Virus record (IMG/VR): IMGVR_UViG_3300035696_000007 | Location: 108,010 to 172,009 of that record | Origin: a virus | DNA length: 64,000 bases | Direction: 5' to 3' (one strand) | Part shown: positions 8,784 to 56,689 of the stretch, piece after piece | Layout: every line of letters starts with the position of its first letter | Position numbering within the stretch: position 1 is the stretch's first letter | Translations under genes and position numbers: made by a program | Notes under the pieces: model-generated | The model's input: the letters and a program-made list of their open reading frames with translations, nothing else | What the model was told of the DNA's origin: nothing | Databases searched by the model: none

Positions 8784-9335
8784 TCAGTCCCTGTCGACGC
8801 AGATGGCGATGACGCCCCCGACGGCGAGGACGATGAAGAAGACGACCTGGCAGCCGCCCACCCACCGCCAGAGGGACGGGTGGCTGTGCTTCCACCAGAC
8901 GCCCTCGAACACGTCGAGCATCCCCTTGGCCTCGCCCTGCTCCTGAGCCGTGATCTGCTGGATGGCGGCCTGGTACTGGAAGGAGCCGACGTCCATGTTC
9001 AGGATTTCGTGCAGGCGCCCCTGGAGGCTCTTGACGGCCTCCAGGTTGCGGTCGAAGGAGTTGTCCGGGGTCGTGAGGAGCACGGCGTTGTGCTCGCCGG
9101 CGAAACCCCCGGCCTCCAGCGCGGCCACGAAGGCGTCGACGTACTTCGACTTCTGCGGGATGGTGGAGGCCTTCTCGGCGAGGCTCCAGTACGACCCGAA
9201 CTGGCGGCTGTACTGGTACTCGCCGACGATCTCGTTGGCGACGTTGAAGACCGTGGCGGCGACGCCGACCAAGAGCATGACGATCCCGGCGGGCGTGAGG
9301 GCGGACCTGTCGGAGGGCGACGATATGGTGTCCAT
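8784..9335 (-). CDS. two-TM membrane protein
   Basis: hydrophobic segments at both termini. Confidence 0.7.
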   Translation of the reverse strand: MDTISSPSDRSALTPAGIVMLLVGVAATVFNVANEIVGEYQYSRQFGSYWSLAEKASTIPQKSKYVDAFVAALEAGGFAGEHNAVLLTTPDNSFDRNLEAVKSLQGRLHEILNMDVGSFQYQAAIQQITAQEQGEAKGMLDVFEGVWWKHSHPSLWRWVGGCQVVFFIVLAVGGVIAICVDRD

Positions 9336-45981: not shown

Positions 45982-46029
45982 GAAAATGGTATTATTTAGG
46001 CTTATCACACTAGATGAGTTACTAATAGA

Positions 46030-46117
46030 TGGCGGAGGGCGGAGATCTCGCGTCCCAGCGGCTCGCGCCGCCCCATGAGCTTCCAACTCAGGCCGACCCT
46101 CGGCCGGTTCACCCTCC
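46030..46117 (-). tRNA. tRNA-Ser(GGA)
   Basis: loop UUGGAAG; GCCA. Confidence 0.8.
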
Positions 46118-46400
46118 GAAAAGGAAATCGTTGACAAAACCGCGCCGGGAACAATCGGTGGTCGCGGGGATGTTTACGAAATCATGGTGGCCCGGCAGCT
46201 GGCTCGTGCGCGTCTCGGCCCGGAAGAAGGTCGTGCGCAGCTTCCAGTGCCTGACCTTCGACGACGCGAGGCTGGAGGCCTCCAAGGCCGTGAACGCCCG
46301 GCGCCTGCGCAGGCACCCGCTGCCGACGGCCGTCACCGTGGCGCTGATCGAGGGGCCGGGCCGGACGAGCCCGGAGATGCCCCTCTTCAGCGGCGGAAAG

Positions 46401-46476
46401 TGGTCCCCCCGCCCGGATTCGCGCCGGGATCTGCGCCTTAGGACGACGCGGCCCTGTCTAGTTGGACGACGGGGAG
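46401..46476 (-). tRNA. tRNA-Arg(CCT)
   Basis: loop GUCCUAA. Confidence 0.85.
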
Positions 46477-46477
46477 A

Positions 46478-46553
46478 TGGTAGGGGCGGTGGGACTCCCA
46501 CCCACACTATGCCGGGTTCGTAGCCCGGGTGACTAATAATTGCCGACGCCCCC
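46478..46553 (-). tRNA. tRNA-Arg(ACG)
   Basis: loop CUACGAA. Confidence 0.85.
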
Positions 46554-46577
46554 AAGATTGAAAAAGGTAGTTACGGC

Positions 46578-47000
46578 ATGAACAAGAGCCGACGGGTGAT
46601 CAGCCAGCTGACGGAAGCCGGGCCGGACCAGGGACAGAAGCCCGACGCCCTCGCGGCACTGGTGGCCTTCGCCAAAGAGGTGGTCGAGGCGTTCGAGGAG
46701 CACGAGTCCGGCGACCTCAACGACATCCCGGCGGACATCGTCATCGAGCGCGGCCGGGCCGCGCTGAAGCTGGCCGGCGCGGACGTGTCCAGCCTGCAGA
46801 AGTACAAGGTCGAGCAGCTCTTCGGCGGCGACTGGGGCGACCCGCAGTGGGAGGAGAACGAACACCCCATGCGCTTCGACACCGAGGAGGAGGCCTGGGT
46901 GGAGGTCGACGAGTTCCTCGCCGACGCGGCGGCCGCCGCGGAGGCCGGGCACATGGCGGCGGGGTTCAGCCGGGACGAGTTCCGGGTCGTCCCCGCCTGA
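46578..47000 (+). CDS. acidic hypothetical protein (SRRVISQLTE N-terminus)
   Basis: TAGTTA-N4-ATG; antisense to the tRNA array. Confidence 0.7.
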   Translation: MNKSRRVISQLTEAGPDQGQKPDALAALVAFAKEVVEAFEEHESGDLNDIPADIVIERGRAALKLAGADVSSLQKYKVEQLFGGDWGDPQWEENEHPMRFDTEEEAWVEVDEFLADAAAAAEAGHMAAGFSRDEFRVVPA

Positions 47001-47003
47001 GAG

Positions 47004-47079
47004 TGGACCCCGCGGCGGGATTCGCACCCGCACCACCGGCCTTAGAACGACCGGGCGCTGTCTGTTACACCACGCGGGG
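47004..47079 (-). tRNA. tRNA-Arg(TCT)
   Basis: loop GUUCUAA. Confidence 0.85.
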
Positions 47080-47095
47080 AAGGGGTACTTAGGCC

Positions 47096-47332
47096 ATGAA
47101 GAGCGCCGTCGAGAGGCTGCTGGAGGACGACCGGCAACCGTGGAGCCACGAGAACACGGTCAACGCCATCGTCGGCTCGTTCGTCGGCTTCGACTTGGAC
47201 GCCAGCGTCGCCAGGCTGCGCGTCCTCCTGGCCAAGGTGCCCGACCCGCTGCTGCGCCAGGTCTACGACGCGATGCACGCGGGCGAGGAGGACACCCTCG
47301 CGAGGGGCCCCTACCGGTTCACCGACAAGTGA
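47096..47332 (+). CDS. hypothetical protein (MKSAVERLLE)
   Basis: TACTTA-N4-ATG. Confidence 0.65.
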   Translation: MKSAVERLLEDDRQPWSHENTVNAIVGSFVGFDLDASVARLRVLLAKVPDPLLRQVYDAMHAGEEDTLARGPYRFTDK

Positions 47333-47333
47333 G

Positions 47334-47407
47334 TGGTCGCCCCGCCGGGAATCCCACCCGGGACGCGGCCTTCGGAGGGCCGCATGATATGGCTTCACCA
47401 CGGGGCG
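47334..47407 (-). tRNA. tRNA-Arg(CCG)
   Basis: loop CUCCGAA. Confidence 0.85.
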
Positions 47408-47411
47408 AAAT

Positions 47412-47488
47412 TGGGGCGATCGACGGGGCTTGCACCCGCAACCCGCGGGCTCACAACCCGCTGCTCTGCTGATTGAGCTACGACCGCC
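47412..47488 (-). tRNA. tRNA-His(GTG)
   Basis: loop UUGUGAG; G-1:C73. Confidence 0.9.
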
Positions 47489-47489
47489 G

Positions 47490-47564
47490 TGGGGCCTCAG
47501 TGGGGATTTGCGCCCCCCTGTCCGATTTACAAAATCGGTCCCTCGCTGCCTAGGGGTCTGAGGC
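47490..47564 (-). tRNA. tRNA-Thr(TGT)
   Basis: loop UUUGUAA. Confidence 0.85.
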
Positions 47565-47587
47565 GAAGTCGAAGTTGTAGTTAAGGC

Positions 47588-47908
47588 ATGGAAAAGACTC
47601 CTGCACCGAAGCCGAAGCTGCGTGGAACCATGGCGCCGGGTTCCGCCCTCCTCAGCCTTGTCGCCGACATCGAGGCGATGCAGACCAATGTCCCCGACGA
47701 ATATGAGGGGGATGCGGCTGACCGCGGCTGGTTCGGCCCCTTCGAAACAGGGGTGTCCGCGTACGAGCGGGGCCACTTCATCCTGTGGCCCAACCTTGAA
47801 ATCCTTCTGGTGCAAGCCAAGGCGGCCCTGGAGGCGACCAAACCAAGAGGCTCCGCCGGCCCGGTCGAATCCAAAGCCTCCCGCCTCGTCGACAGGCTAC
47901 TCGAATGA
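47588..47908 (+). CDS. hypothetical protein (C-terminal ASRLVDRLLE)
   Basis: TAGTTA-N4-ATG. Confidence 0.65.
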   Translation: MEKTPAPKPKLRGTMAPGSALLSLVADIEAMQTNVPDEYEGDAADRGWFGPFETGVSAYERGHFILWPNLEILLVQAKAALEATKPRGSAGPVESKASRLVDRLLE

Positions 47909-48390
47909 GCCACCGTTTCATCCTTTTCGGCGGCGGGTCTGGGAACGTCTACGGCGTCAGCGACGCCGCGAGCTTCGAGGAGGCGTGGAAGGAGATCCTG
48001 GCGGCGGGCGGGCCGCTGGGCTACTCGGCTGGCGGGGAGCCCGGGGGCGAGGTCGAGCGCGAGTGGCCCGAGTTCGACGACATGTCGGTGATGCTCGGGG
48101 GCGCGGAGATCGAGAAAAAGGACGGCTACTGGCTGATCACCGCCCGCGACTCGGACGAGGGCCAGTTCGGACTGCTGGACGCCCAGTCCGCCAACTCGGC
48201 GGTGCAAAAGGAGATCGAGGATCTCGGCCTGCAGAAGTACGCCGACGAGTTCGTCGCCGAGAAGGCCGCGCTGGACGCCGAGGCCGAGGACGAGATGCAC
48301 CGCCAGGCGGTCTACGCGCAGGCGCCGCAGCACGAGTCGGTCAAGGCGGCCGCGAAACGGCTGGTCGACGCGCTGCTCGGCGAGGCCTGA
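47905..48390 (+). CDS. acidic hypothetical protein (C-terminal AKRLVDALLGE)
   Basis: coupled ORF. Confidence 0.7.
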   Translation: MSHRFILFGGGSGNVYGVSDAASFEEAWKEILAAGGPLGYSAGGEPGGEVEREWPEFDDMSVMLGGAEIEKKDGYWLITARDSDEGQFGLLDAQSANSAVQKEIEDLGLQKYADEFVAEKAALDAEAEDEMHRQAVYAQAPQHESVKAAAKRLVDALLGEA

Positions 48391-48393
48391 AAG

Positions 48394-48469
48394 TGGGGCC
48401 ACCGACCCGAGTCGCACGGGCAACGTCCTGTTTACGGAACAGGTGCTCTGCTGATTGAGCTACGGCGGC
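48394..48469 (-). tRNA. tRNA-Thr(CGT)
   Basis: loop UCCGUAA. Confidence 0.85.
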
Positions 48470-48474
48470 GAGAT

Positions 48475-48549
48475 TGGTAGGCGCGGGAGGGGTTTCGCCT
48501 CCACCCAAGGGATTATGGGTCCCCTGCTCTGAGATTGAGCTACGCGCCC
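48475..48549 (-). tRNA. tRNA-Ile2/Met(CAT)
   Basis: loop CCCAUAA. Confidence 0.8.
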
Positions 48550-48553
48550 GAAG

Positions 48554-48639
48554 TGGTGCGGCCGGCGCGAATCGCACGCGCACGCCCCGGAGGGCAGCGG
48601 GGTTTAGGCCCGCCGCGTCTGCTGTTCCGCCACGGCCGC
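48554..48639 (-). tRNA. tRNA-Leu(TAA)
   Basis: loop CCUAAAC; variable arm. Confidence 0.85.
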
Positions 48640-48644
48640 GAAGT

Positions 48645-48728
48645 TGGTGGGGGCGGAGGGGGTTGCACCCTCATGCCTCGCGGCCGGGGGTTTTGGGTCC
48701 CCTGCGTATGCTGTTCCGCCACGCCCCC
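48645..48728 (-). tRNA. tRNA-Leu(CAA)
   Basis: loop CCCAAAA; variable arm. Confidence 0.85.
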
Positions 48729-48733
48729 GAGAT

Positions 48734-48810
48734 TGGCGGCGGCGACGGGAGTTGCACCCGCATTTCACCGGCTGAGAACCGGGGTTCCTAGGCTGTTAGA
48801 AGACGCCGCC
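48734..48810 (-). tRNA. tRNA-Glu(CTC)
   Basis: loop UUCUCAG. Confidence 0.85.
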
Positions 48811-48817
48811 ATGAAAT

Positions 48818-48893
48818 TGGCCGCCCCGACGGGATTCCCACCCGTGTCGCAGGCTTGAAGGGCCCGCATCCTGGGATGCTAGAAGACGGGGCG
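48818..48893 (-). tRNA. tRNA-Glu(TTC)
   Basis: loop CCUUCAA. Confidence 0.85.
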
Positions 48894-48896
48894 AAA

Positions 48897-48981
48897 TGGT
48901 ACGGGTAGAGGGACTCGCACCCCCATGCCTTGCGGCGCCGCCTTCTGAGGGCGGTGTGTCTGCTGATTCCACCATACCCGC
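48897..48981 (-). tRNA. tRNA-Leu(CAG)
   Basis: loop CUCAGAA. Confidence 0.85.
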
Positions 48982-48987
48982 GTGAAA

Positions 48988-49245
48988 CTATTCGGCCATC
49001 GCCCTGCGGATCGCGGCGAGCGCGGCCGGGTCCCCGGCCTTGGCCCTCTTGGCGAACAGGGCGAACGAGGTCCCCCTGACGGCGTCGGTGACCGGCTTCC
49101 GGCCGTGGAGCCTCTGGAGGTCGAGCTCGGCGGCGCGGCGGGCGACTCTCTCGCCGTAGGCGTCGCGCAGCCACCGCACGGCGTCCACCGTGCTGCCCTC
49201 CTCCCTGGGCCTGGCCAGGGCGTCGGCTATCCTGACGAGCCTCAT
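48988..49245 (-). CDS. hypothetical protein
   Basis: TACTTA-N4-ATG. Confidence 0.6.
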   Translation of the reverse strand: MRLVRIADALARPREEGSTVDAVRWLRDAYGERVARRAAELDLQRLHGRKPVTDAVRGTSFALFAKRAKAGDPAALAAIRRAMAE

Positions 49246-49257
49246 GCCCTAAGTAAA

Positions 49258-49342
49258 TGGTGCGGTCAGGGGGAGTCGCACCCCCACGGGTCACCCCACC
49301 GGCCCCTCAAGCCGGCGCGTCTGCTGGTTCCGCCATGACCGC
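49258..49342 (-). tRNA. tRNA-Leu(GAG)
   Basis: loop UUGAGGG. Confidence 0.85.
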
Positions 49343-49352
49343 GAAAAATCGT

Positions 49353-49616
49353 TCAGCCCCGGACGTGGTACTCGATGCGCAGCCGGGCCCTGTCCTCCGC
49401 CGAAACGCACTCCCAGCACTCCACCTGGCCGGGGAAGAATACCCGCACGGGCAGGTCCTCGGGGTAGTCGCCCTTCATCTCGACGAAGACGGTGTGGCAG
49501 CGCTTCTCGGCGTCCCAGAGGTTCAGCTGGGCCGCGCACCCCGAAAGGAGCCGCCCGCCGACTTTGAACCTGATTTTGATGCCGTGCGGCGGCAGGAGCC
49601 TGTTGATGCTGATCAT
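49353..49616 (-). CDS. hypothetical protein
   Basis: GTTCT motif upstream. Confidence 0.6.
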   Translation of the reverse strand: MISINRLLPPHGIKIRFKVGGRLLSGCAAQLNLWDAEKRCHTVFVEMKGDYPEDLPVRVFFPGQVECWECVSAEDRARLRIEYHVRG

Positions 49617-49632
49617 GCCCGTAAGAACAAAG

Positions 49633-49708
49633 TGGGGCCTCCTGTCGGATTTGCGCCGACCGTCCTCCCCTTACCAAGGGGTAGCATCGCTGCCTATGCT
49701 TAGGAGGC
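49633..49708 (-). tRNA. tRNA-Thr(GGT)
   Basis: loop UUGGUAA. Confidence 0.85.
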
Positions 49709-49709
49709 G

Positions 49710-49786
49710 TGGTAGCACCGGTCGGATTTGCGCCGACGACCTTCCCCTTATGAGGGGGCTGCGCTGGCTGGCTGCGCCACGGTGCC
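49710..49786 (-). tRNA. tRNA-Met(CAT)
   Basis: loop CUCAUAA. Confidence 0.85.
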
Positions 49787-49793
49787 ATGAAGT

Positions 49794-49872
49794 TGGTGGG
49801 GGCCGAGGCAGTTGCAGCCTCACGGATGGTCCGGGTAAGGGCCGGGTGCCCGTCTACTGTGGCTTGACCCCC
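49794..49872 (-). tRNA. tRNA-Lys(CTT)
   Basis: loop CCCUUAC. Confidence 0.8.
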
Positions 49873-49879
49873 GAAAGTT

Positions 49880-50089
49880 TTCCAGCCCGAGCGTAGCCGC
49901 GATTCTGTTTTATCCGCACATCACTCTAGGCCGCTACCATGCCCTCTTGACGGGAAGCACTACCCTGGGGCCCTTTTGCGTTGCAGCTACCATGCGGTGT
50001 TGGCGGGCCCGCGCCCTCCCGATCGGCTGCTTTGCTGTCGCGAACTTCCTCCGGGGACGAGCCCCGGCGTGCAGTCCTCTTGGCTGGAA
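49880..50089 (-). ncRNA. rnpB: minimal RNase P RNA (~210 nt, S-domain largely deleted)
   Basis: P1 UUCCAGCC/GGCUGGAA, P2, P3, CR-I GAGGAAGUUCGCGA, CR-IV CUAGAGUGAUG, CR-V ACAGAAUCGCGGCUA. Confidence 0.85.
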
Positions 50090-50096
50090 TCGAAAG

Positions 50097-50171
50097 TGGC
50101 TGGGGCGGCAGGATTCGCGCCTGCGCCATCGGGGTTCAAGGCCCCGCGTGCTGCTGTTACACCACGCCCCA
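50097..50171 (-). tRNA. tRNA-Gln(TTG)
   Basis: loop CCUUGAA. Confidence 0.85.
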
Positions 50172-50191
50172 AAAAGCTGTTCTGACGAGGC

Positions 50192-50827
50192 ATGGTCGAC
50201 TACTCGACGATCCCCGCCTCCTGCCAGATCCCCGGCCTGGCGGGCATCTACCGGAAGTGGCTCGCGCCCGCGGAGACGGGCGCCTTCGTCGAGGTGGGGG
50301 CCTACAGCGGCATCGCCTACAGCAACACCTACTGCTTCTGCCTCGCGGGCTGGCGCGGGCTGCAGATCGAGCCGCACCCCGCGACCTTCGCCTCGCTGCT
50401 GGAGAACATGCGGCCCTTCCCGAACGTCGCCTGCGAGCAGGTGGCCTGCTCGGACTGCGACGGGGAGGCGAGGCTGTACGACATGGGGGAGTGCTCCACG
50501 CTCGTGCTGGACGAGAACGCGCGGGCCTGGGGCTGCCGCGAGGACCGGTTCATCGTGGTCAGGACGACCCGGCTGGACGGGCTGCTGGAGAGGCACGCCA
50601 TCCCGCCCGGCTTCGAGGTGCTGGTCGTCGACGTCGAGGGGGCGGAGCTGTCGGTGCTGGCCGGGCTCGACCTGCGGCGGTGGCGCCCGAGGATGGCGAT
50701 CGTGGAGACGCACGAGAAGCACCCGAGCATCCTACACCCCAACGCCTGGGCCATCACCAAGCACTTTGAGGACCGGGGCTACTGCAAGGTCTACGCCGAC
50801 CACATCAACAGCATCTTCGCCCGCTGA
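50192..50827 (+). CDS. FkbM-family methyltransferase
   Basis: FVEVGAYSG..SNT..GW.GLQIEP; RLDGLL; VDVEGAELSVL. Confidence 0.85.
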   Translation: MVDYSTIPASCQIPGLAGIYRKWLAPAETGAFVEVGAYSGIAYSNTYCFCLAGWRGLQIEPHPATFASLLENMRPFPNVACEQVACSDCDGEARLYDMGECSTLVLDENARAWGCREDRFIVVRTTRLDGLLERHAIPPGFEVLVVDVEGAELSVLAGLDLRRWRPRMAIVETHEKHPSILHPNAWAITKHFEDRGYCKVYADHINSIFAR

Positions 50828-50830
50828 AAC

Positions 50831-50906
50831 TGGTGGAGGTGGCGGGATTCGCACCCGCGGCCTACGCGATGCCATCGCGCCGCTCTGCTGGCTGAGCTAC
50901 ACCCCC
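50831..50906 (-). tRNA. tRNA-Ala(GGC)
   Basis: loop AUGGCAU; G3:U70. Confidence 0.9.
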
Positions 50907-50955
50907 GAAAAAGTTGATCCAAGCAGCCGCGCTTAGAGTTCTTGTTTACATTCCC

Positions 50956-51351
50956 ATGAACACGAAACAGACGCTGCAGACACTGTTGAGCTACTACACG
51001 GCGACCCGCAAGATCGGCCACACCCGCGCGATGCTTGCCGGGGCGCAGAATACAGATGGTTGTCTTATTCTCACCGGCGTGGATGACATCGCCCTGACTC
51101 CCCCCAAAGGCGCCTCGTGCGTCAACGTCGTCTATGACGACAATCTGGTCCAACACTTCGTGGGTGTGCGCAAGCCCATGCTAGTGGACAACTCCGCCAT
51201 CGAGCACATCCTGCGCACGTCGCTGGCCGAGATCACCCGGCTGGAGACCCACGTCAAGCGGCTGAAGACCGAGAAGGCGCACCTGGCGCAGGGCAGACCC
51301 GGCCAGATCCCGGCCGAGGCCCCGGCGGCCCCCGGCGAGCTGCCGGCCTGA
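50956..51351 (+). CDS. hypothetical protein
   Basis: ORF, RKIGHT. Confidence 0.6.
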   Translation: MNTKQTLQTLLSYYTATRKIGHTRAMLAGAQNTDGCLILTGVDDIALTPPKGASCVNVVYDDNLVQHFVGVRKPMLVDNSAIEHILRTSLAEITRLETHVKRLKTEKAHLAQGRPGQIPAEAPAAPGELPA

Positions 51352-51354
51352 AAG

Positions 51355-51429
51355 TGGCTGCGGCGACTGGCTACGCTCCAGTGACTTCGGTTTCAGAGAC
51401 CGACGTGTTACTAGCTACACCACACCGCA
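51355..51429 (-). tRNA. tRNA-Gln(CTG)
   Basis: loop CUCUGAA. Confidence 0.85.
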
Positions 51430-51471
51430 AAGGAGTCTTCTTCACCGTCCGAGAACAGACCGTGCGTAGAT

Positions 51472-51548
51472 TGGTCGGCCCGGTGGGATTCGCACCCACG
51501 GTCTCTTGCTCCCGAAGCAAGCGCGATACTAGGCTACGCCACGGGCCG
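51472..51548 (-). tRNA. tRNA-Pro(CGG)
   Basis: loop UUCGGGA. Confidence 0.9.
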
Positions 51549-51556
51549 AACGGAAA

Positions 51557-51632
51557 TGGTGGTCGGCGGGGGACTCGCACCCCCGGTCCCCTGCATGTCG
51601 CGCAGGTGCCTTGGCTGCTGGGCTAGCCGACC
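51557..51632 (-). tRNA. tRNA-Val(GAC)
   Basis: loop GCGACAU. Confidence 0.85.
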
Positions 51633-51639
51633 GGAAAGC

Positions 51640-51716
51640 TGGTCGGGCCGGCGGGATTCGCACCCGCGGTCTCCTGCACCCCATGCAGGCGCGATGCTAG
51701 GCTACGCTACGGCCCG
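51640..51716 (-). tRNA. tRNA-Pro(GGG)
   Basis: loop AUGGGGU. Confidence 0.9.
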
Positions 51717-51721
51717 GAAGA

Positions 51722-51796
51722 TGGCTGCTCGGGCAGGACTCGCACCTGCAACCCTGGTGTTAACAGCACCCCGCTCTACTTTGGAGCTACCGAGCA
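51722..51796 (-). tRNA. tRNA-Asn(GTT)
   Basis: loop CUGUUAA. Confidence 0.85.
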
Positions 51797-51804
51797 ATGG
51801 AAAG

Positions 51805-51933
51805 TGGTGCCGGCGCTTGGAGTCGAACCAAGTCTAGTCTATTAGCAGTAGAAGTAACCCTCGTCATCACTGCGCCTTGCGACGAGAATAGGAGACCCGG
51901 GTGTTTTCTGTGCTACCGTTACACTACACCGGC
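51805..51933 (-). ncRNA. tRNA/Y-RNA chimera 1 (CCA end, GCU loop)
   Basis: GCCGGUG/CGCCGGC-ACCA, D arm, inserted UAUUCUCG-GCAA-GCAGUGA..GGUUACUUC stem, UUCGACU T-loop. Confidence 0.75.
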
Positions 51934-51941
51934 AGAAGCCT

Positions 51942-52071
51942 CCCGGGAGGAAGTCGAGTAGGGGTTTGGCCGGGTTTGCGGCCCGGTGCCTGACCATTTG
52001 GCGTACTGTCCCCTTTCGGGGGCGGTATCGGAATCGAACCGATGAAGTAACCCTAGCCCTCACTGCCCGGA
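51942..52071 (-). ncRNA. YrlA-like Y RNA with circularly permuted tRNA domain
   Basis: GCAGUGA..GGUUACUUC, T arm, GAAA-capped acceptor stem, D arm, CCGCAAA anticodon arm, ACUUCCUC. Confidence 0.75.
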
Positions 52072-52074
52072 AGA

Positions 52075-52151
52075 TGGTGCTCCGCGAGGGACTCGCACCC
52101 CCGTTTTTCCTCTGTGTGGAAGAGGTACCATAGCTGCTAGGAGAGCGGAGC
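52075..52151 (-). tRNA. tRNA-Val(CAC)
   Basis: loop UCCACAC. Confidence 0.8.
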
Positions 52152-52169
52152 GAAAGTGGTAGTTAGCGC

Positions 52170-52466
52170 ATGAGCGAGACCATCAGGCGCCTGGTCGAGT
52201 ACGAGGAGGACTGCCTCTACAACAACCCCATCGAGCCCGACCTCAAGAAGGAGGGCTGGGAGCTGATCGGCACGGGCGGCGGCTGCACGGCGGCCATCAA
52301 GCGCGTCGGCAGGGCGAGCCTGCTGCTCACCGACCAGGCGGAGGCCCCGCTCAGCCTCGACCAGGAGTGCACGCTCGGCGTCTACGACGAGGACGAGAAG
52401 GTCGTGATGACGTTCACCGTCACGGCGCGGCAGGCCCTGGAGCTGGGCCGCACGGCCAGCTGGTAA
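52170..52466 (+). CDS. hypothetical protein (MSETIRRLVE)
   Basis: TAGTTA-N4-ATG; TGGGCTA motif. Confidence 0.7.
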   Translation: MSETIRRLVEYEEDCLYNNPIEPDLKKEGWELIGTGGGCTAAIKRVGRASLLLTDQAEAPLSLDQECTLGVYDEDEKVVMTFTVTARQALELGRTASW

Positions 52467-52468
52467 GA

Positions 52469-52510
52469 TGGCGGGCAGCGTCCTGGTGCGTTTGAACGAA
52501 ATCTCCGCCC
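52469..52510 (-). ncRNA. mini tRNA-like hairpin with GCCA end
   Basis: GGGCGG/CUGCCC-GCCA. Confidence 0.35.
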
Positions 52511-52515
52511 TAAAG

Positions 52516-52592
52516 TGGCGGCGCCAAGGAGTGCTGCCCTCCCCTCTCAACCGTGACAGGGTTGCGCTTTCGGCTAGGTAAGCTATGGCACC
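52516..52592 (-). tRNA. tRNA-Asp(GTC)
   Basis: loop CUGUCAC. Confidence 0.85.
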
Positions 52593-52599
52593 AAGAAAA

Positions 52600-52676
52600 T
52601 GGTCAGCGTGGTGGGATGCGCGCCCACGACCGCCGGTCCCCAAAGCCGGAGCTCTGCTAGGCTGAGCTACACGCTG
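52600..52676 (-). tRNA. tRNA-Pro(TGG)
   Basis: loop UUUGGGG. Confidence 0.85.
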
Positions 52677-53038
52677 AAATTGTTCCGATGAGTCAGTTTC
52701 CTCTCACGGTAGGTTTTTCTCCGGTGGCAGTTGGCGCACCGGACATCACATTTAGCCACTTCCGCGATCACTGACTGTAATGAAAAACTTCGACGTCGGG
52801 CATCCCCAAGGTCGAACAATTTCTTAACTCCTGGTCGATGGTCGAACTCCAGCACGATAGGATCAGTCTCCCCACAATCGACACAAGGATGGGTAAAAAG
52901 GTACCCCGTCAAGTACACAGCTGTTTGCGCACGTACCTTAGCGTTATGTGCCATCGCTCTAGCAACATAAGCACCTTTATTTCTTCGATAATGCGCACGA
53001 GAAGATCGTCTTCGATCCTCTATCCGTTTATAGGGCAT
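52667..53038 (-). mobile_element. HNH homing endonuclease inserted in the tRNA array
   Basis: CVDCGETDPIVLEFDH..EVAKCDVRCANCHRRKT; low GC; stop lies inside tRNA-Pro 5' end. Confidence 0.85.
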
Positions 53039-53055
53039 AATCTTTAGAACAAAAT

Positions 53056-53133
53056 TGGGAGCAGGGGTGGCGCTCGAATCCACGTTATTGGGCTTATGAG
53101 ACCCAGCTGGGACCATCTCCAGTCGACCCTGCT
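53056..53133 (-). tRNA. tRNA-fMet-like (CAT)
   Basis: UGGGU-CUCAUAA-GCCCA, GGG/CCC stem. Confidence 0.75.
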
Positions 53134-53152
53134 ACGATAGGTACTATGAAAG

Positions 53153-53229
53153 TGGTGGGAACGGCTGGCGTTGCACCGGCGACCTCCGCTTTTTCAGAGC
53201 GGCGCTCTACCTGGCTGAGCTACGTCCCC
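53153..53229 (-). tRNA. tRNA-Phe(GAA)
   Basis: loop CUGAAAA. Confidence 0.9.
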
Positions 53230-53355
53230 TGGAGGCATCTGCCGCTGTTTGGGCGGCATACGCGGGCGGTTTCAAGGCCCGGGTGAAGTAACCCTGACGC
53301 TCACTGCGCCTTGCGGCGAGGATCAGGCTTCAAGGTACCTGTATTCACAGATGCC
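53230..53355 (-). ncRNA. tRNA/Y-RNA chimera 2
   Basis: GGCAUCU/AGAUGCC-UCCA enclosing GAUCCUCGCC-GCAA-GGCGCAGUGA..GGUUACUUC. Confidence 0.7.
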
Positions 53356-53359
53356 AAAG

Positions 53360-53493
53360 TGGTGGCGCTGTCAGGATTCGAACCTGAATAGGTCAACTTT
53401 TTGGGTTGATGTGTTTTCCGAAGTAACCCGCCCTATCACTGCGCCTCGCGGCGAGAATAGCCGGGTGGGTGTTGTAGTTTTCACCACAGCGCC
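53360..53493 (-). ncRNA. tRNA/Y-RNA chimera 3
   Basis: GGCGCUG/CAGCGCC-ACCA, UAUUCUCGCC-GCGA-GGCGCAGUGA..GGUUACUUC, UUCGAAU T-loop. Confidence 0.75.
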
Positions 53494-53499
53494 GAAAAT

Positions 53500-53555
53500 T
53501 GGTGGACCGCCCCGGTGATCAGCCAGGCTAGTGCGAGGTTTCCACGCAGCGGTCC
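53500..53555 (-). ncRNA. 56-nt mini tRNA-like RNA
   Basis: GGACCGC/GCGGUCC-ACCA + 5-bp T arm + one hairpin. Confidence 0.55.
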
Positions 53556-53560
53556 GAGAG

Positions 53561-53634
53561 TGGCACGCCCCCAGGGAGTCGCACCCTGCCGCCAGGTTTT
53601 GGAGACCCGGCCCTCGCTCCGAGCTGTGGGACGT
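53561..53634 (-). tRNA. tRNA-Trp(CCA)
   Basis: loop CUCCAAA. Confidence 0.8.
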
Positions 53635-53635
53635 A

Positions 53636-53710
53636 TGGTAGCCGCGTAGGGTGTCGCGCCCTCGTCTCCCGCTTATCGAGCGGGTGCTCTGCTGGTTGAG
53701 CTACACGGCC
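53636..53710 (-). tRNA. tRNA-Ile(GAT)
   Basis: loop UCGAUAA. Confidence 0.85.
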
Positions 53711-53717
53711 AAAGGCA

Positions 53718-53834
53718 TGGGGACGAGCGGGGTTTCACCGCCTTCTAGCTTGCGAGGCCAGTTTTGCCGGCCAGCGAAGGGAACGGGATTCGCGGTCCCT
53801 ATTGTTACCTTTTGCCAGCGTTCTGTTCGCCCCC
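53718..53834 (-). ncRNA. expanded tRNA-like RNA
   Basis: GGGGGCG/CGUCCCC-A acceptor, GGCGG-UGAAACC-CCGCU T arm, extra internal hairpins. Confidence 0.45.
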
Positions 53835-53845
53835 GAAAGGGAAAG

Positions 53846-53932
53846 TGGTCCCGGCGGGAGGACTCGCACCTCCGCAGCCCCGAAGGGCGACTGGGTTACG
53901 GCCAGTTGCAGTTGCTACTGTGCCACACCGGG
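53846..53932 (-). tRNA. tRNA-Tyr(GTA)
   Basis: loop CCGUAAC; variable arm. Confidence 0.85.
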
Positions 53933-53990
53933 AAAAGAGTGCCCGTGATTACGGCTCACGGGCAAAGCCAAATGTTCCGCGTGGAACATG

Positions 53991-55445
53991 CTAAAGCTCG
54001 ACCGCCTCGATGCGGTGGACGAGCGCGGCGCGGTCCTGCTCAAGGATCTTGAACAGGTCGAACACCTTGTCGGACCAGCCGGCGATGCAGTAGACCTTGT
54101 CCTCAGGGAACTGGATGGAACCCTGATGGTTGAGGTCCCAGCTGTAGACCGCCGGACGGACGCCCGCCTTGCGGACGTAGGCCTCGAACGACTGCATGCC
54201 CGTCCGCCCGCTGACCCAGTTCTGCTGGTCAGAGAGGATGACGATACGGGAGTACTTGCGGCCATCCGCCGTCCCGGCGATGAGCCGGAGCGCGCAGTCG
54301 AGGTCGGTGCCACCCCCGGTGAAGGGGATGTGCTTGGCGACCGTGAAGACCGAGTCGGTCAGGTTCAGGTTCACGTACTGGGCGTGGGTGTCAAAGACCA
54401 CCACGTCAGCGTTCCAAGCCTTCGCGAGGATCGCGGTGAACAGACCACCGATTTGCGCCGGGGAACCCTGCATGGAACCGGAAACGTCGAGGATGACACA
54501 CGAGCTGCCCTCGAACACGGGCACGTTCGCGACAGACAGGTCGATCACCTTGGCCAGGGCCGAGGAGATCTGCCGGAACTGCGCGGACGGCAGGCCCGCC
54601 GACTCGACCGCCGCCAGAGCGTTCTGCACCTGGAACGGGAAGATCAGAGCCTTGCGGACGGCCGCCGGGTCGCCGAGCTGGGCGAGGGCCTCCGGGAGGA
54701 CCTCGGGGGCCTGCTGGGCGAGGTTGCGCAGGTTGCGCAGGAGGGCCAGGTACTTGAGCTTGCGCTCGCGCACCAGGGACACCCACGCGTCCTTCTTGGC
54801 CTCGACCACGGACTCCTCGTCCTCGGCCTGGCCCGCCTTGGTGAGCTTGGCCTCCCAAGTCTCGGCGGGGGCGAGGGTGCCCTTCATGAGCTGGCTGAGG
54901 GCCGGGGTGGCCTTCGGGCGGACGAGGTTGACCACGTCCACCAGGTTGAAGGCCGCGCCCTCCTTGCGGTACTTCGCGAGGGCGTAGGCGTCCTGACGGG
55001 ACAGCGCCGCGCCGAGGCCCTTCTTCAGGGAGTTCGGGATCGGCTTGCCGTACTTGGTCAGGTAGTAGGCCAGGATCTCGACGGCGTCATCGGCCCGGTA
55101 GACCACGCGGTCGAAGAACCGCTTGGTCCACGGCTGGCCCTTCACGGCCTTGGCGATCTCGGCCGCCACGGCGTGGGTGATGGAGCGCATGCCGAACTCC
55201 CGGCGGGCGTACAGCGCGGCCTTGGCCGCGAAGGCCGGGTCGACCTGGCCCACGAGCTCGGTGACGCGCAGGAGCACGTCGCTGGAGCTGCGGTAGAACT
55301 GGTCCTGGACGAAGCTGGTCAGCATGGTGCTGACGAGCTCCAAAGCGGCGGTCGGCTTGAAGGCCGGGCCCCCCGCGAGGTTGACGGTGTTGCCCGCAGA
55401 AACAGACTTGCGGGCCACCTTCGGGTTGGTGGCGAAACGGGACAT
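53991..55445 (-). CDS. rsr: Ro60/TROVE-domain RNA-binding protein with vWA domain
   Basis: NLAGGPAF, QDQFY, YARREFGMRS, YALAKY, TWEAKL, ALLRNLRN, FPFQ, DVSGSM, GGTD, ILSDQQ, GWSD; AGGAGG RBS. Confidence 0.92.
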   Translation of the reverse strand: MSRFATNPKVARKSVSAGNTVNLAGGPAFKPTAALELVSTMLTSFVQDQFYRSSSDVLLRVTELVGQVDPAFAAKAALYARREFGMRSITHAVAAEIAKAVKGQPWTKRFFDRVVYRADDAVEILAYYLTKYGKPIPNSLKKGLGAALSRQDAYALAKYRKEGAAFNLVDVVNLVRPKATPALSQLMKGTLAPAETWEAKLTKAGQAEDEESVVEAKKDAWVSLVRERKLKYLALLRNLRNLAQQAPEVLPEALAQLGDPAAVRKALIFPFQVQNALAAVESAGLPSAQFRQISSALAKVIDLSVANVPVFEGSSCVILDVSGSMQGSPAQIGGLFTAILAKAWNADVVVFDTHAQYVNLNLTDSVFTVAKHIPFTGGGTDLDCALRLIAGTADGRKYSRIVILSDQQNWVSGRTGMQSFEAYVRKAGVRPAVYSWDLNHQGSIQFPEDKVYCIAGWSDKVFDLFKILEQDRAALVHRIEAVEL

Positions 55446-55510
55446 GGCGTCCTCCTAGTTTTGGGTTTTAGACTGCCCGATCCGGCGTCGTGCCGGGCCG
55501 GGAGGAGAGA

Positions 55511-55580
55511 TGGGGAGGAAATCGGCCACGGGTTTGTTTTCCTATAACCAGGGAGAAGTAGCCGCGACCTCACTGCCCCA
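55511..55580 (-). ncRNA. minimal Y-RNA-like element
   Basis: GGGGCAGUGA..GGCUACUUC..AAACCCG..GAUUUCCUCCCC. Confidence 0.7.
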
Positions 55581-55597
55581 AGATGTTCGAAAGTGAT

Positions 55598-55697
55598 GCG
55601 CCGGGAGGAAATCGCAGGCGGTGTTTTCTGGTGGGCCTTTCGGCCCGTCCATTTTGTGGTTGGAGTAGAAGTAACCGCATTGCTCACTGCCCAGCAC
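55598..55697 (-). ncRNA. Y-RNA-like element
   Basis: GGGCAGUGA..GGUUACUUC..AACACCG..GAUUUCCUCCC. Confidence 0.7.
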
Positions 55698-55710
55698 ACG
55701 AAGGTGGCCA

Positions 55711-55778
55711 CAGCAGGAGAAAACCGCCGACGGGTTTGTTCATGATGTTAGAAGTAACCGTAAGCTCACTGCCTGCTG
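55711..55778 (-). ncRNA. minimal Y-RNA-like element
   Basis: CAGCAGGCAGUGA..GGUUACUUC..AAACCCG..GGUUUUCUCCUGCUG. Confidence 0.7.
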
Positions 55779-55787
55779 CGATGAAAG

Positions 55788-55864
55788 TGGTACCCCGTGA
55801 GGGACGTGCGCCCTCCCTGCCTGGTTGGAAGCCAGGAGTGCTCGGCTGTTGACACCAACGGGGC
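55788..55864 (-). tRNA. tRNA-Gly(TCC)
   Basis: loop CUUCCAA. Confidence 0.85.
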
Positions 55865-56046
55865 GAGAAAGTTTTGGAAGATGGCTGCCGTGCCCGTGAG
55901 CACTCCCCATGGCGGTAACGTACCCGGGTGTCCCCGCCAAGCGTGCCACCGTTCGGGCCGGCGCAAGTCTCGATCAGCGGCGCGCGGGGGCTGTAGACCC
56001 CCGCAGACCTCGGTGAGGCGCGCCGTCACGCCGGCCTTATCCAAAT

Positions 56047-56122
56047 TGGTGGACCGGATGGGGATCGCACCCACCGCACGCTCCTTGCGAAAGAGCATCG
56101 CCTCTGAGGTACATGCCGGCCC
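56047..56122 (-). tRNA. tRNA-Ala(CGC)
   Basis: loop UUCGCAA; G3:U70. Confidence 0.85.
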
Positions 56123-56240
56123 GGAAGATAGTTTTGGGGCTTTTACCCCTTCCCGTCGAACTCTCGGGTGCCACTGGGGCCCCGTGGAGGGAAGCGGCCA
56201 GCGCGACGACGCCGCTATTGGGTCCCGTCGCTGGCTAAAG

Positions 56241-56315
56241 TGGAGAGGCGTGCTGGAGTCGCACCAGCGCATAGGAGTTTTGCGGACTCCGGCCTTGCTG
56301 CTTGGCTAACGCCTC
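56241..56315 (-). tRNA. tRNA-Cys(GCA)
   Basis: loop CCGCAAA; U73. Confidence 0.85.
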
Positions 56316-56592
56316 AACGGAAGAGCTGCCTGAGGGCCTGGGCGGCGAGGCGGGCCCGGGTGGGCTCGTCGATGTCGCCGGTGACCACGTCGCCGCCGTC
56401 GGTCGTGACCGCGTCGATGTCGGCGTACCAGCCGGGCTCGTTGCCGAGCGAGCCGGGCGCGCCCTCGTTGTAGGCGCACGTGGCGTCCACGACGACGGGC
56501 ACGTCGTCCTCGCCCCGCAGCGTCACGAAGGCGTCGAACCGGACGGTCTTGGATTCGCCTAGGAGCTGCTCAAGGACGGCGCGGGCTTTCAC
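56314..56592 (-). CDS. hypothetical protein (ARAVLEQLLGE)
   Basis: TAGTTA-N4-GTG. Confidence 0.65.
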   Translation of the reverse strand: MKARAVLEQLLGESKTVRFDAFVTLRGEDDVPVVVDATCAYNEGAPGSLGNEPGWYADIDAVTTDGGDVVTGDIDEPTRARLAAQALRQLFR

Positions 56593-56607
56593 GGCCTAAC
56601 TACAGGT

Positions 56608-56683
56608 TGGTGGCTCCCGCGGGATTTCCGCCCGCAACCTACCGCTTAAAAGGCGGCAGCTCTTGATGTTGAGCTAGGGAGCC
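56608..56683 (-). tRNA. tRNA-Lys(TTT)
   Basis: loop CUUUUAA. Confidence 0.9.
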
Positions 56684-56689
56684 GAAAAG

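What the first reader, a model, noticed from the sequence alone, without database searches (positions are those of the whole stretch)
51805..53493. Inside-out Y RNAs: the Ro60-associated stem grafted into CCA-ended tRNA bodies
Seen: three RNAs (51805-51933, 53230-53355, 53360-53493) have 7-bp acceptor stems, a T arm and NCCA. Each carries the same bulged stem as the free elements beside rsr but circularly permuted: the 3' strand (UAUUCUCG/GAUCCUCG) comes first, a GNRA loop (GCAA/GCGA) joins it to GGCGCAGUGA..GGUUACUUC, and an anticodon-like hairpin follows (CU-GCU-AA; CUUGAAA; CC-AAA-AA). Established: YrlA-class Y RNAs are tRNA mimics whose acceptor stem is closed by a loop and whose ends lie in the Ro stem, the reverse topology. 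Inference: these could be RNase P-processed, possibly chargeable tRNA-Ro60 tethers or nuclease decoys, or intermediates in tRNA-to-Y RNA evolution.
Basis: partly seen in the sequence, partly recalled or inferred. Interest (0 to 1): 0.9.

Follow-up and report, generated by a model that had tools for sequence, protein, structure and literature searches.

The report
tRNA-shaped Y RNAs beside Ro60
Three small RNA genes in this phage's tRNA cluster have tRNA-type ends, but where the anticodon arm should be they carry the conserved hairpin that marks the partner RNAs (Y RNAs) of the neighbouring Ro60 protein. I found the same layout directly in front of Ro60 genes in cultured soil bacteria, and no paper I searched describes it.

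Summary
Observation confirmed. Three RNAs (51805-51933, 53230-53355, 53360-53493, minus strand) each have a 7-bp acceptor stem, a T or T-like hairpin and an encoded NCCA. Each holds a two-helix module that is also found, with open ends, in four RNAs flanking rsr (53991-55445).

In the three RNAs the module is circularly permuted and capped by GCAA or GCGA. A covariance model of the permuted module scores them at 63-67 bits. It finds 17 more copies:
- a related complete 225-kb phage and two metagenome contigs;
- within 0.6 kb upstream of rsr in Sorangium cellulosum, Nannocystis pusilla, other Myxococcota and a Chloroflexota contig.

Both helices and the tRNA stems covary (93-98% of cells paired against 32-53% in slid controls).

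Best reading: these are Y RNAs of the YrlA kind that keep the native tRNA topology. The presumed Ro60-binding helix replaces the anticodon arm, and the ends are matured like tRNA ends.

Not shown: Ro60 binding, processing and charging. The "anticodon-like" loops are not conserved between orthologues. Only E1 has a full tRNA body.

Rfam YrlA does not match. I found no paper describing this layout. This scan noted the same layout before on other DNA (cyanobacterial rsr loci, e1-2630374); I did not test that note.

Verdict: new variant of a known kind.

The parts
51805..51933 (-). E1: tRNA-topology Y RNA with a full tRNA body. Acceptor 51927-51933 / 51809-51815; D arm 51910-51924; GAAAACA 51902-51908; module 51851-51907 (cap GCAA 51877-51880); hairpin 51838-51852; T arm 51816-51832; ACCA 51805-51808.
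   Evidence: R1 67.2 bits. Orthologues P2, P2b and bacterial B1-B4 covary in acceptor, D and T stems.
53230..53355 (-). E2: CCA-ended RNA with acceptor 53349-53355 / 53234-53240, module 53285-53341 (cap GCAA 53311-53314), hairpin 53263-53281, T-like hairpin 53241-53257 (loop CCAAACA) and UCCA 53230-53233. It has no D arm.
   Evidence: (z -3.3). R1 65.9 bits. Orthologue on metagenome contig L165:5125-5250 with G-C to A-U changes in helix 2.
53360..53493 (-). E3: CCA-ended RNA with acceptor 53487-53493 / 53364-53370, a short hairpin in place of the D arm (53475-53486), module 53420-53476 (cap GCGA 53446-53449), hairpin 53393-53409, canonical T arm 53371-53387 and ACCA 53360-53363.
   Evidence: (z -3.1). 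R1 63 bits. Orthologues P3 and P3b have 5 of 7 acceptor pairs changed on both sides.
51939..52074 (-). Element D: open-ended Y RNA in the canonical YrlA order. 5' strand CAGUGA, UUACUUC, T arm AUCGG-UUCGAUU-CCGAU, closed acceptor-like hairpin, D-like arm, 3' strand CUUCCU plus closing stem. It ends 5 nt upstream of E1.
   Evidence: Orthologue in G001 (L140:8225-8363).
55708..55781 (-). Free element A: small open-ended Y-like RNA upstream of rsr.
55596..55699 (-). Free element B: open-ended Y-like RNA upstream of rsr.
55511..55580 (-). Free element C: small open-ended Y-like RNA, about 65 nt upstream of the rsr start.
53991..55445 (-). rsr: Ro60 orthologue (TROVE plus vWA), 484 aa.
   Evidence: Pfam TROVE E 2.2e-19. 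57% identical to the G001 orthologue. 31% identical to Polyangiaceae Rsr, E 3e-25.

Best explanation
E1-E3 are partner RNAs (Y RNAs) of the phage Ro60 orthologue Rsr. They relate to YrlA-type tRNA-mimic Y RNAs but are built in the opposite topology.

In published Y RNAs the 5' and 3' ends pair to form the Ro60-binding stem, and in YrlA the tRNA-like acceptor stem is closed by a loop. Here the acceptor stem is open (7 bp, discriminator, CCA). The conserved bulged helix H1 is closed by a tetraloop. H1 plus a second, covarying helix H2 projects where the anticodon arm of a tRNA would be.

H1 is 5'-UUCU-C / G-[C]-AG-[U]-GA, the same pairs in all 20 copies apart from two copies with C-G in place of U.G at one pair. 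H2 is flanked by the conserved single strands AACA and UUACUUC.

Inferred steps:
- The RNAs are cut out of the poly-tRNA transcript like tRNAs, by RNase P at the 5' end and 3' trimming to the encoded CCA. Their ends would then be protected as tRNA ends are.
- Rsr binds the capped helix H1.
- The UUACUUC/AACA junction plus the tRNA-like body is the effector-binding side. This mirrors the way other Y RNAs tether Ro60 to PNPase.

Shown here: the anatomy, its conservation, and its linkage to rsr. Not shown: binding, processing, and any role of the CCA end.

The layout most plausibly relates to canonical YrlA by tandem duplication. A read from the middle of one tRNA-topology copy to the middle of the next gives exactly the YrlA order. 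E3 and E2 are such a tandem pair with identical closing stems (GGCG/CGCC).
For: (1) The same module occurs in both topologies in one locus. There are seven copies, all within 4 kb around rsr on its strand.

(2) Conservation in phages. Phage G001 (225 kb, terminal repeats) has three permuted copies, a canonical-order copy, four free copies and rsr in one tRNA array. Contigs L173 and L165 carry further orthologues.

(3) Direct linkage to rsr in bacteria. A tRNA-topology element followed by a small free element lies 0.2-0.6 kb upstream of a TROVE gene in G136, G098, G273, G130, G379 (two copies), G022, Sorangium cellulosum CP012670.1, Nannocystis pusilla and an Aggregatilineales contig (two copies). 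In a sample of 401 Myxococcota genomes, 6 had this rsr clade; the 4 loci I read with close (61-100%) matches carry a tRNA-topology element there, one (G006 C918) has only a free element, and the upstream region of the sixth (G039, a weak 40%-identity match) was not read.

(4) Covariation of the module. In 20 copies, 93.2% of cells are paired against 34-52% when slid; 9 of 15 pairs have double changes; 0 of 500 shuffles reach the score. The H1 core is the same in all 20 apart from one pair (U.G in 18, C-G in 2), while the cap stem and H2 vary by compensation.

(5) Covariation of the tRNA body. In 8 copies, acceptor, D and T stems are 97.7% paired against 35-53% when slid; 13 of 16 pairs are compensatory; U8, A14 and G18 are invariant.

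(6) Cap loops and cap-stem lengths vary freely (GCAA, GCGA, GAAA, GUGA, AUCC, UUCA, UCCG, UCAC, GAUGA). That is expected if the cap only closes a helix which elsewhere ends in the RNA termini.

(7) Precedent. M. smegmatis YrlA is cut by RNase P in its acceptor loop and receives CCA in vivo. An open CCA-bearing acceptor end on a Ro60-bound RNA therefore exists (PMC4201824). Wang et al. describe YrlA as resembling circularly permuted tRNA (10.1101/312249).
Against: - No binding, expression or end-mapping data exist.
- The conserved 5' strand G-S-C-AGUGA differs from the published Rsr motif GNCGAAN0-1G and from metazoan GGUCCGA.
- Rfam YrlA (RF02553) gives nothing above 30 bits against a cut-off of 69, even for the canonical-order element.
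- It is untested whether Rsr accepts a capped helix only 3-6 bp beyond the bulge.
- E2 lacks the D arm and a tRNA-type T loop, so a tRNA-like effector module is not common to all three.
- In one Polyangiales MAG the tRNA-topology copy sits beside a CARF-domain gene, not rsr.
- The module alignments were fitted to the model, which favours pairing.
Confidence: 0.7

Rival explanations
1. They are Rsr-independent tRNA mimics. The CCA-ended, anticodon-less tRNA look-alikes would act as decoys or sponges for factors that attack or use tRNA acceptor ends or elbows, such as host defence toxins. The shared module would be bound by something other than Ro60.
For: They sit in a phage tRNA array. Of 25 CCA-ended T arms in the array, only E1 and E3 have the canonical U55 T loop (UUCGA); the phage's own tRNAs have UGCGA, UGCAA or CGCGA. 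One bacterial copy lies beside a CARF gene rather than rsr.
Against: The same module sits immediately upstream of rsr in at least 10 bacterial loci and in every phage that has it. Two bacterial copies have UGCAA T loops, so a canonical elbow is not a rule. E2 has no elbow at all.
Confidence: 0.13
2. The tRNA part is only a processing and stability cassette. RNase P and 3' trimming define the ends, and the functional unit is the capped Ro60 hairpin with its UUACUUC/AACA junction. The tRNA body and CCA would bind no effector.
For: E2 and E3 have degenerate tRNA bodies yet keep the acceptor stem, a T-type hairpin and CCA, which is the minimal RNase P substrate. Small free elements of 60-75 nt have no tRNA part at all and still keep the junction motifs.
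Against: In the E1 class, U8, A14, G18 and the T loop are conserved from phages to Myxococcota. That exceeds what RNase P needs. M. smegmatis and Salmonella YrlA keep a full tRNA fold (PMC4201824; 10.1101/312249).
Confidence: 0.12
3. They are real decoding tRNAs interrupted by an intron or insertion that is removed. On this reading E1 would become a tRNA-Ser(GCU).
For: Acceptor stem, T arm and CCA are tRNA-like. E1 has a 4-bp hairpin with a 7-nt loop, CU-GCU-AA. Intron-tolerant ARAGORN calls some orthologues as intron-bearing tRNAs.
Against: ARAGORN calls none of E1-E3. For the orthologues it gives inconsistent identities (Trp, Glu, Pyl, Phe) and non-canonical intron positions. The loops are not conserved between orthologues. 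The 'insert' is homologous to free-standing RNAs and under structural selection. It has no group I intron features and is only about 57 nt. Bacterial copies lie at rsr, not in tRNA operons.
Confidence: 0.04

Closest known systems
YrlA, the tRNA-mimic Y RNA of bacterial and mycobacteriophage Rsr/Ro60 (Chen et al. 2014, PMC4201824; Wang et al. 2018, bioRxiv 10.1101/312249; Rfam RF02553)
   Same: Encoded next to rsr on the same strand, often with a second small Y RNA. It combines a conserved stem presumed to bind Rsr with a tRNA-like domain (acceptor-like stem, D and T arms, U8/A14/G18). The stem takes the place of the anticodon arm.
   Different: - Topology is reversed. YrlA has its ends in the Ro stem and a loop-closed acceptor stem (order T-AS-D). 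Here the ends are in a 7-bp acceptor stem with NCCA and the Ro stem is loop-closed (order D...T).
- The conserved 5' strand is G-S-C-AGUGA, not GNCGAAN0-1G.
- The extra invariant motifs UUACUUC and AACA are present.
- RF02553 does not match.
[quoted passage not shown] 2014)
   Same: A Ro60-bound RNA whose tRNA-like acceptor stem is open, with a mature 5' end and a 3' CCA.
   Different: In M. smegmatis this state is reached by cutting a closed-loop YrlA, which gives a two-piece RNA (82 + 65 nt) with four ends. Here it is encoded as one chain with the Ro stem capped.
Circularly permuted tRNA genes of red algae and an archaeon (Soma et al. 2007, as cited in 10.1101/312249)
   Same: The same pair of topologies applies: closed acceptor with open anticodon side, versus open acceptor. 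They are related by circular permutation, probably through tandem duplication.
   Different: Those are precursors processed into decoding tRNAs. These RNAs have no conserved anticodon and carry a Ro60-type module.
tmRNA tRNA-like domain and viral tRNA-like structures
   Same: Non-decoding RNAs with an open acceptor stem and a CCA end.
   Different: None of the copies has the G3:U70 alanine identity pair of tmRNA (acceptor sequences). There is no mRNA-like part, and the association is with Ro60 rather than SmpB.

Membership tests
Y RNA (Ro60/Rsr partner RNA) | Encoded within a few kb of the Ro60 orthologue on the same strand | tested here: met
   E1-E3 lie 0.5-2.2 kb downstream of rsr on its strand. 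Bacterial copies lie 0.2-0.6 kb upstream of TROVE genes.
Y RNA (Ro60/Rsr partner RNA) | Bound by Ro60/Rsr | not testable with these tools
   Needs an EMSA or RIP experiment.
Y RNA (Ro60/Rsr partner RNA) | Ro60-binding helix formed by pairing of the RNA's 5' and 3' ends | tested here: not met
   The helix is closed by a tetraloop and the ends lie in the acceptor stem. This is the point of difference.
Y RNA (Ro60/Rsr partner RNA) | Conserved bulged helix with a conserved 5' strand | tested here: met
   The H1 core (U-A, U.G, C-G, U-A, C-G, with a bulged C/U and a bulged U) is the same in all 20 copies, except that one pair is C-G instead of U.G in two copies. The same helix occurs in 24 open-ended elements.
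YrlA (RF02553) | Match to the Rfam covariance model at or above 69 bits | tested here: not met
   No RF02553 match at E<=5 in 46000-60000. The best own-genome score is 15 bits, and the best in any of four genomes is 30 bits at tRNA-tRNA junctions.
YrlA (RF02553) | GNCGAAN0-1G motif near the 5' end (PMC4201824) | tested here: not met
   The conserved strand is G-S-C-AGUGA, with variants UAGUGA, CAGUAA and CAGCGA.
YrlA (RF02553) | tRNA-like domain with T arm, D arm and acceptor-like stem | tested here: met
   Met for E1 and its class (97.7% paired). E3 has only the T arm and acceptor. E2 has the acceptor and a non-canonical T-like hairpin.
YrlA (RF02553) | Acceptor-like stem closed by a loop; order T - AS - D | tested here: not met
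   The acceptor is open with NCCA and the D side precedes the T side.
tRNA (RF00005) | Cloverleaf with a 5-bp anticodon stem and 7-nt loop; detected by tRNA finders | tested here: not met
   ARAGORN calls none of the three, with or without introns. RF00005 reaches 28.6 bits (cut-off 29) only for a partial misalignment of E3.
tRNA (RF00005) | 7-bp acceptor stem, discriminator, CCA | tested here: met
   All 7 acceptor pairs show compensatory changes among 8 copies.
tmRNA-type chargeable mimic | G3:U70 alanine identity pair | tested here: not met
   Position 3:70 is C-G, G-C or A-U in the 14 copies whose full-length sequences were printed; no copy has G:U.

The most novel reading that the evidence does not exclude
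The free CCA end is functional. These Ro60-bound tRNA look-alikes would be aminoacylated, or be recognised by EF-Tu, the CCA-adding enzyme or toxins that modify CCA ends. They would then physically couple the Ro60 RNA-decay and quality-control ring to the tRNA or translation machinery, or, in the phage, shield its tRNA pool. On this reading the tRNA topology is the ancestral form from which all YrlA-type Y RNAs arose by tandem duplication.
Probability: 0.15. Interest if true: 0.9.

Novelty: new variant of a known kind. Interest (0 to 1): 0.68.

Why it matters
Y RNAs have been defined by a stem made from their own two ends, and bacterial YrlA has been described as a circularly permuted tRNA with a closed acceptor stem. 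These RNAs show that the un-permuted layout exists naturally: a one-piece tRNA-shaped RNA with a free CCA end and the presumed Ro60 site at the anticodon position. It occurs in large soil phages, in cultured myxobacteria (Sorangium, Nannocystis) and in Chloroflexota.

Three consequences follow:
- It gives a concrete intermediate for the proposed tRNA origin of Y RNAs.
- It may explain why YrlA searches found few candidates in delta-proteobacteria.
- It makes two questions testable in culturable organisms: whether the tRNA-like end of a Y RNA is charged, and what it binds.

It also warns annotators that such genes are missed by tRNA finders and by Rfam alike.

Tried and rejected
- GenBank phages: megablast and blastn with the region and with E1 found no match. 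The closest Rsr there (LR745206.1, 44% identical) has no such motif or tRNAs nearby.
- Rfam at gathering and at E<=5: only tRNA hits and no Y RNA family. RF02553 searched directly gave nothing useful.
- Loose IMG/VR pattern scans returned mostly chance hits in coding DNA. A cap-independent scan found only phages with tandem open-ended elements, L238 and L239.
- R1 scores of 15-34 bits at such places are junctions between neighbouring free elements, not permuted copies.
- My first two scripts for pairing the 5' and 3' strands of free elements used a wrong boundary and were discarded. One search is the corrected one.
- The intron reading was rejected.
- I misread the frame of the L228 gene at first. 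The correct frame is TROVE.
- Two reviews (PMC10870794, PMC6047535) and the supplement of Chen et al. 2014 are not held. I therefore could not check whether any listed phage YrlA has this layout.
Full report
**Setting.** The window is the last 64 kb of a 172-kb IMG/VR virus record, about 76% complete. From about 46.4 to 56.8 kb the minus strand carries a dense array of tRNA genes with encoded CCA (21 by ARAGORN, about 25 by Rfam). Inside the array lies a 484-aa TROVE plus vWA protein, the Ro60 orthologue Rsr, at 53991-55445.

**The observation.**
- E1 (51805-51933) has a 7-bp acceptor stem, U8, a normal D arm with GG, a canonical T arm (loop UUCGACU) and ACCA.
- E3 (53360-53493) has the acceptor stem, a canonical T arm and ACCA, but only a short hairpin where the D arm should be.
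- E2 (53230-53355) has the acceptor stem, UCCA and a 5-bp hairpin with loop CCAAACA at the T position. It has no D arm.
- Each holds a roughly 57-nt block: AACA, helix-2 3' strand, (U)UUCU-C, a 3-4 bp cap stem, GCAA or GCGA, cap stem, G-[C]-AG-[U]-GA, helix-2 5' strand, UUACUUC.

Four other RNAs in the window hold the same pieces in the other order. Three lie just upstream of rsr (55708-55781, 55596-55699, 55511-55580) and one lies next to E1 (51939-52074). Their order is closing stem, CAGUGA, helix 2, UUACUUC, a variable middle, AACA, helix 2, UUYCU, closing stem. The 51939-52074 element has T arm, closed acceptor-like hairpin and D-like arm in its middle, which is the published YrlA order. 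The permutation claim is therefore correct.

The motif pair CAGUGA...GGYUACUUC occurs seven times in the 172-kb genome. All seven are on the minus strand within 4 kb, and the reversed-pattern control gives none.

**Is it conserved?** Yes. Pattern scans of IMG/VR and JGI metagenomes found three related sequences.
- G001 is a complete 225-kb phage (IMGVR_UViG_3300006931_000029). One tRNA array holds three CCA-ended permuted elements (P1-P3), a canonical-order element, four free elements and an rsr 57% identical to the window's.
- L173 is a diverged relative of G001 with all three permuted elements.
- L165 is a relative of the window phage with an E2 orthologue.

E1, P2 and P2b are orthologues, as are E3, P3 and P3b, and E2 and E2b. 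P1 is a fourth type. It has a tRNA-Glu-like body that keeps a 5-bp anticodon stem, with the module growing out of it.

I built a covariance model of the permuted module (R1, 57 positions, 15 pairs). It scores the three window copies at 63-67 bits and finds no other copy in the genome.

**Bacterial copies.** A pattern scan of GTDB genomes and R1 searches of Polyangiales genomes found the same thing in bacterial chromosomes. A tRNA-shaped RNA comes first: 7-bp acceptor, GCUC...GAGC D arm, permuted module, T arm, and ACC or CCA. A small open-ended element follows, and then a TROVE gene.

I searched 401 Myxococcota genomes with the Polyangiaceae Rsr and found the clade in 6. The four loci with close matches that I read (G136, G130, G379, G022) have a tRNA-topology element within 0.6 kb upstream of rsr. 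G379 has two, and G130 has an extra hairpin inside helix 2. A fifth, G006, has only a free element there, and its tRNA-topology copy lies beside a CARF-domain gene elsewhere. The sixth, G039, is a weak match (40% identity) whose upstream region I did not read; R1 scored only 15 bits in its locus.

Via protein homologues I then checked named organisms.
- Sorangium cellulosum CP012670.1 has the element upstream of SOCEGT47_022580.
- Nannocystis pusilla has it.
- An Aggregatilineales (Chloroflexota) contig has two tRNA-topology copies, one canonical-order copy and one small free copy in a row before rsr.

Cap loops vary freely in bacteria (GUGA, GCGA, AUCC, UUCA, UCCG, UCAC, GAUGA). That fits a cap whose only job is to close the helix.

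**Structure support.**
- Module, 20 copies: 93.2% of cells pair, against 34-52% when partners are slid. Nine of 15 pairs show changes on both sides, and 0 of 500 shuffles reach the covariation score (14 copies).
- The five inner pairs of H1 do not vary in any copy, apart from two copies with C-G in place of U.G at one pair. The cap stem and helix 2 vary by compensation. This is the pattern expected for a protein-recognised core flanked by purely structural helices.
- Caveat: these alignments were fitted to the model.
- tRNA body, MAFFT alignment of eight D-arm-bearing copies: acceptor, D and T stems are 97.7% paired against 35-53% when slid. Thirteen of 16 pairs are compensatory, including all seven acceptor pairs. 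U8, A14 and G18 are invariant.

**What it is not.**
- It is not an ordinary tRNA. ARAGORN does not call E1-E3 even with introns allowed, and it gives contradictory identities for orthologues. RF00005 reaches 28.6 bits only for a misaligned part of E3.
- No copy has the G3:U70 pair that lets AlaRS charge tmRNA.
- It is not a formal member of Rfam YrlA. RF02553 gives at most 15 bits in this genome and 30 bits elsewhere, at tRNA-tRNA junctions.
- The published Rsr-recognition motif GNCGAAN0-1G (PMC4201824) is replaced by G-S-C-AGUGA.

Ro60 binding is therefore inferred from three things: tight gene linkage in more than a dozen independent loci; the Y-RNA-like architecture; and the presence of the same stem on canonical-order YrlA-like RNAs in the same loci.

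**Mechanism proposed.**
- Shown: anatomy, conservation and linkage.
- Inferred: maturation as a tRNA (RNase P, 3' trimming, CCA); Rsr on the capped bulged helix; the UUACUUC/AACA junction and the tRNA-like body as the effector side.
- In the small free elements the whole terminal loop is little more than UUACUUC...GAAAACA. In the tRNA-topology and YrlA-order forms a tRNA body is inserted between these two motifs.
- M. smegmatis YrlA reaches a similar open-acceptor, CCA-tailed state by RNase P cleavage in vivo. This suggests the open end is useful, at least for protection from exonucleases.

**Origin.** Tandem copies explain the permutation. E3 and E2 are 4 nt apart and have identical closing stems. 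My script picked the span from E3's 5' strand to E2's 3' strand as a 'free element' in the YrlA order. This fits the dimeric-tRNA origin idea of Wang et al., run in either direction.

**Context.** Of 25 CCA-ended T arms in the array, only E1 and E3 have U55 (UUCGA). The phage's tRNAs have UGCGA, UGCAA or CGCGA. This confirms earlier notes on this genome. Two bacterial copies have UGCAA, so a canonical T loop is not a family rule.

**Literature.** Four full-text searches and four papers gave no description of Y RNAs with tRNA-type ends. Chen et al. discarded hits that overlapped tandem tRNA genes and found few YrlAs in delta-proteobacteria and cyanobacteria. Two reviews and the supplement were not available.

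This scan's own notes report the same layout at cyanobacterial rsr loci (e1-2630374) and flagged E1 in this genome (e1-5734533). I did not test the cyanobacterial claim.

**Verdict.** This is a real, conserved and apparently undescribed topological variant of YrlA-type Y RNAs. The function of its CCA end is unknown.

Noticed in passing
window 56047-56122 (-): A 76-nt CCA-ended tRNA-sized RNA (GGGCCGG...CCGGUCC-ACCA, T loop UGCGAUC) that neither ARAGORN nor Rfam tRNA calls. A close counterpart lies in phage G001 just upstream of a free Y element (L140, about 9084-9160).
   Followed up: no
window 53500-53555 (-): A 56-nt mini tRNA-like RNA between tRNA-Trp and E3. It has a 7-bp acceptor (GGACCGC/GCGGUCC), two short hairpins and ACCA, and no finder calls it.
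   Followed up: no
window 46400-56300 (-): Of 25 CCA-ended T arms found by a simple scan, only E1 and E3 have the canonical UUCGA T loop. All the others have G at position 55 (UGCGA, UGCAA, CGCGA, CGCAA).
   Followed up: yes
window 53328-53348 (-), inside E2; also L165:5125-5250: Right after its acceptor strand, E2 reads GUGA-AUACA-GGUACCUUG (GGUUACCUUG in the orthologue). This looks like a degenerate second copy of the module's 5' half (CAGUGA...GGUUACUUC). In the MFE fold the GUGA pairs with UCAC after UUACU.
   Followed up: no
L140:8799-8933 (-) and L165:5779-5910 (-): Open-ended Y elements whose middle holds a complete D arm, anticodon arm and T arm in normal tRNA order. ARAGORN calls 'tRNA-Asn att' and 'tRNA-Arg acg' inside them. 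This is a third arrangement, besides the YrlA order and the tRNA topology.
   Followed up: partly
L244, about 2004-2137 (+), Aggregatilineales contig: A tRNA-topology element that keeps a D arm and a hairpin with a CAU-containing 9-nt loop. It carries the Ro-type module at the variable-arm position rather than in place of the anticodon arm.
   Followed up: partly
L217:855-2241 (-), Polyangiales MAG JBILLI010000081.1: A tRNA-topology element plus a free Y element lie directly upstream of a 385-aa CARF-type protein (Pfam Cas_NE0113, E 4.5e-8) rather than rsr. This recalls the CARF domain of RtcR, which controls the Salmonella rsr-yrlBA-rtcBA operon.
   Followed up: partly
L165, about 5263-5395 (-): An RNA of about 130 nt with a 7-bp acceptor (GCCGGAG/CUUCGGC), a T arm and UCCACC, and a long insert without the CAGUGA/UUACUUC module.
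   Followed up: no
L130:5484-5990 (+); L238:250-950 (-); L239:6120-6400 (+): Other phages carry 3-5 tandem open-ended Y elements with the variant 5' strand UAGUAA or CAGUAA and the same UUACUUC motif (directly before rsr in L130; rsr was not sought in L238 and L239). Spacers between neighbours can pair, which mimics the permuted module at 26-34 bits.
   Followed up: partly
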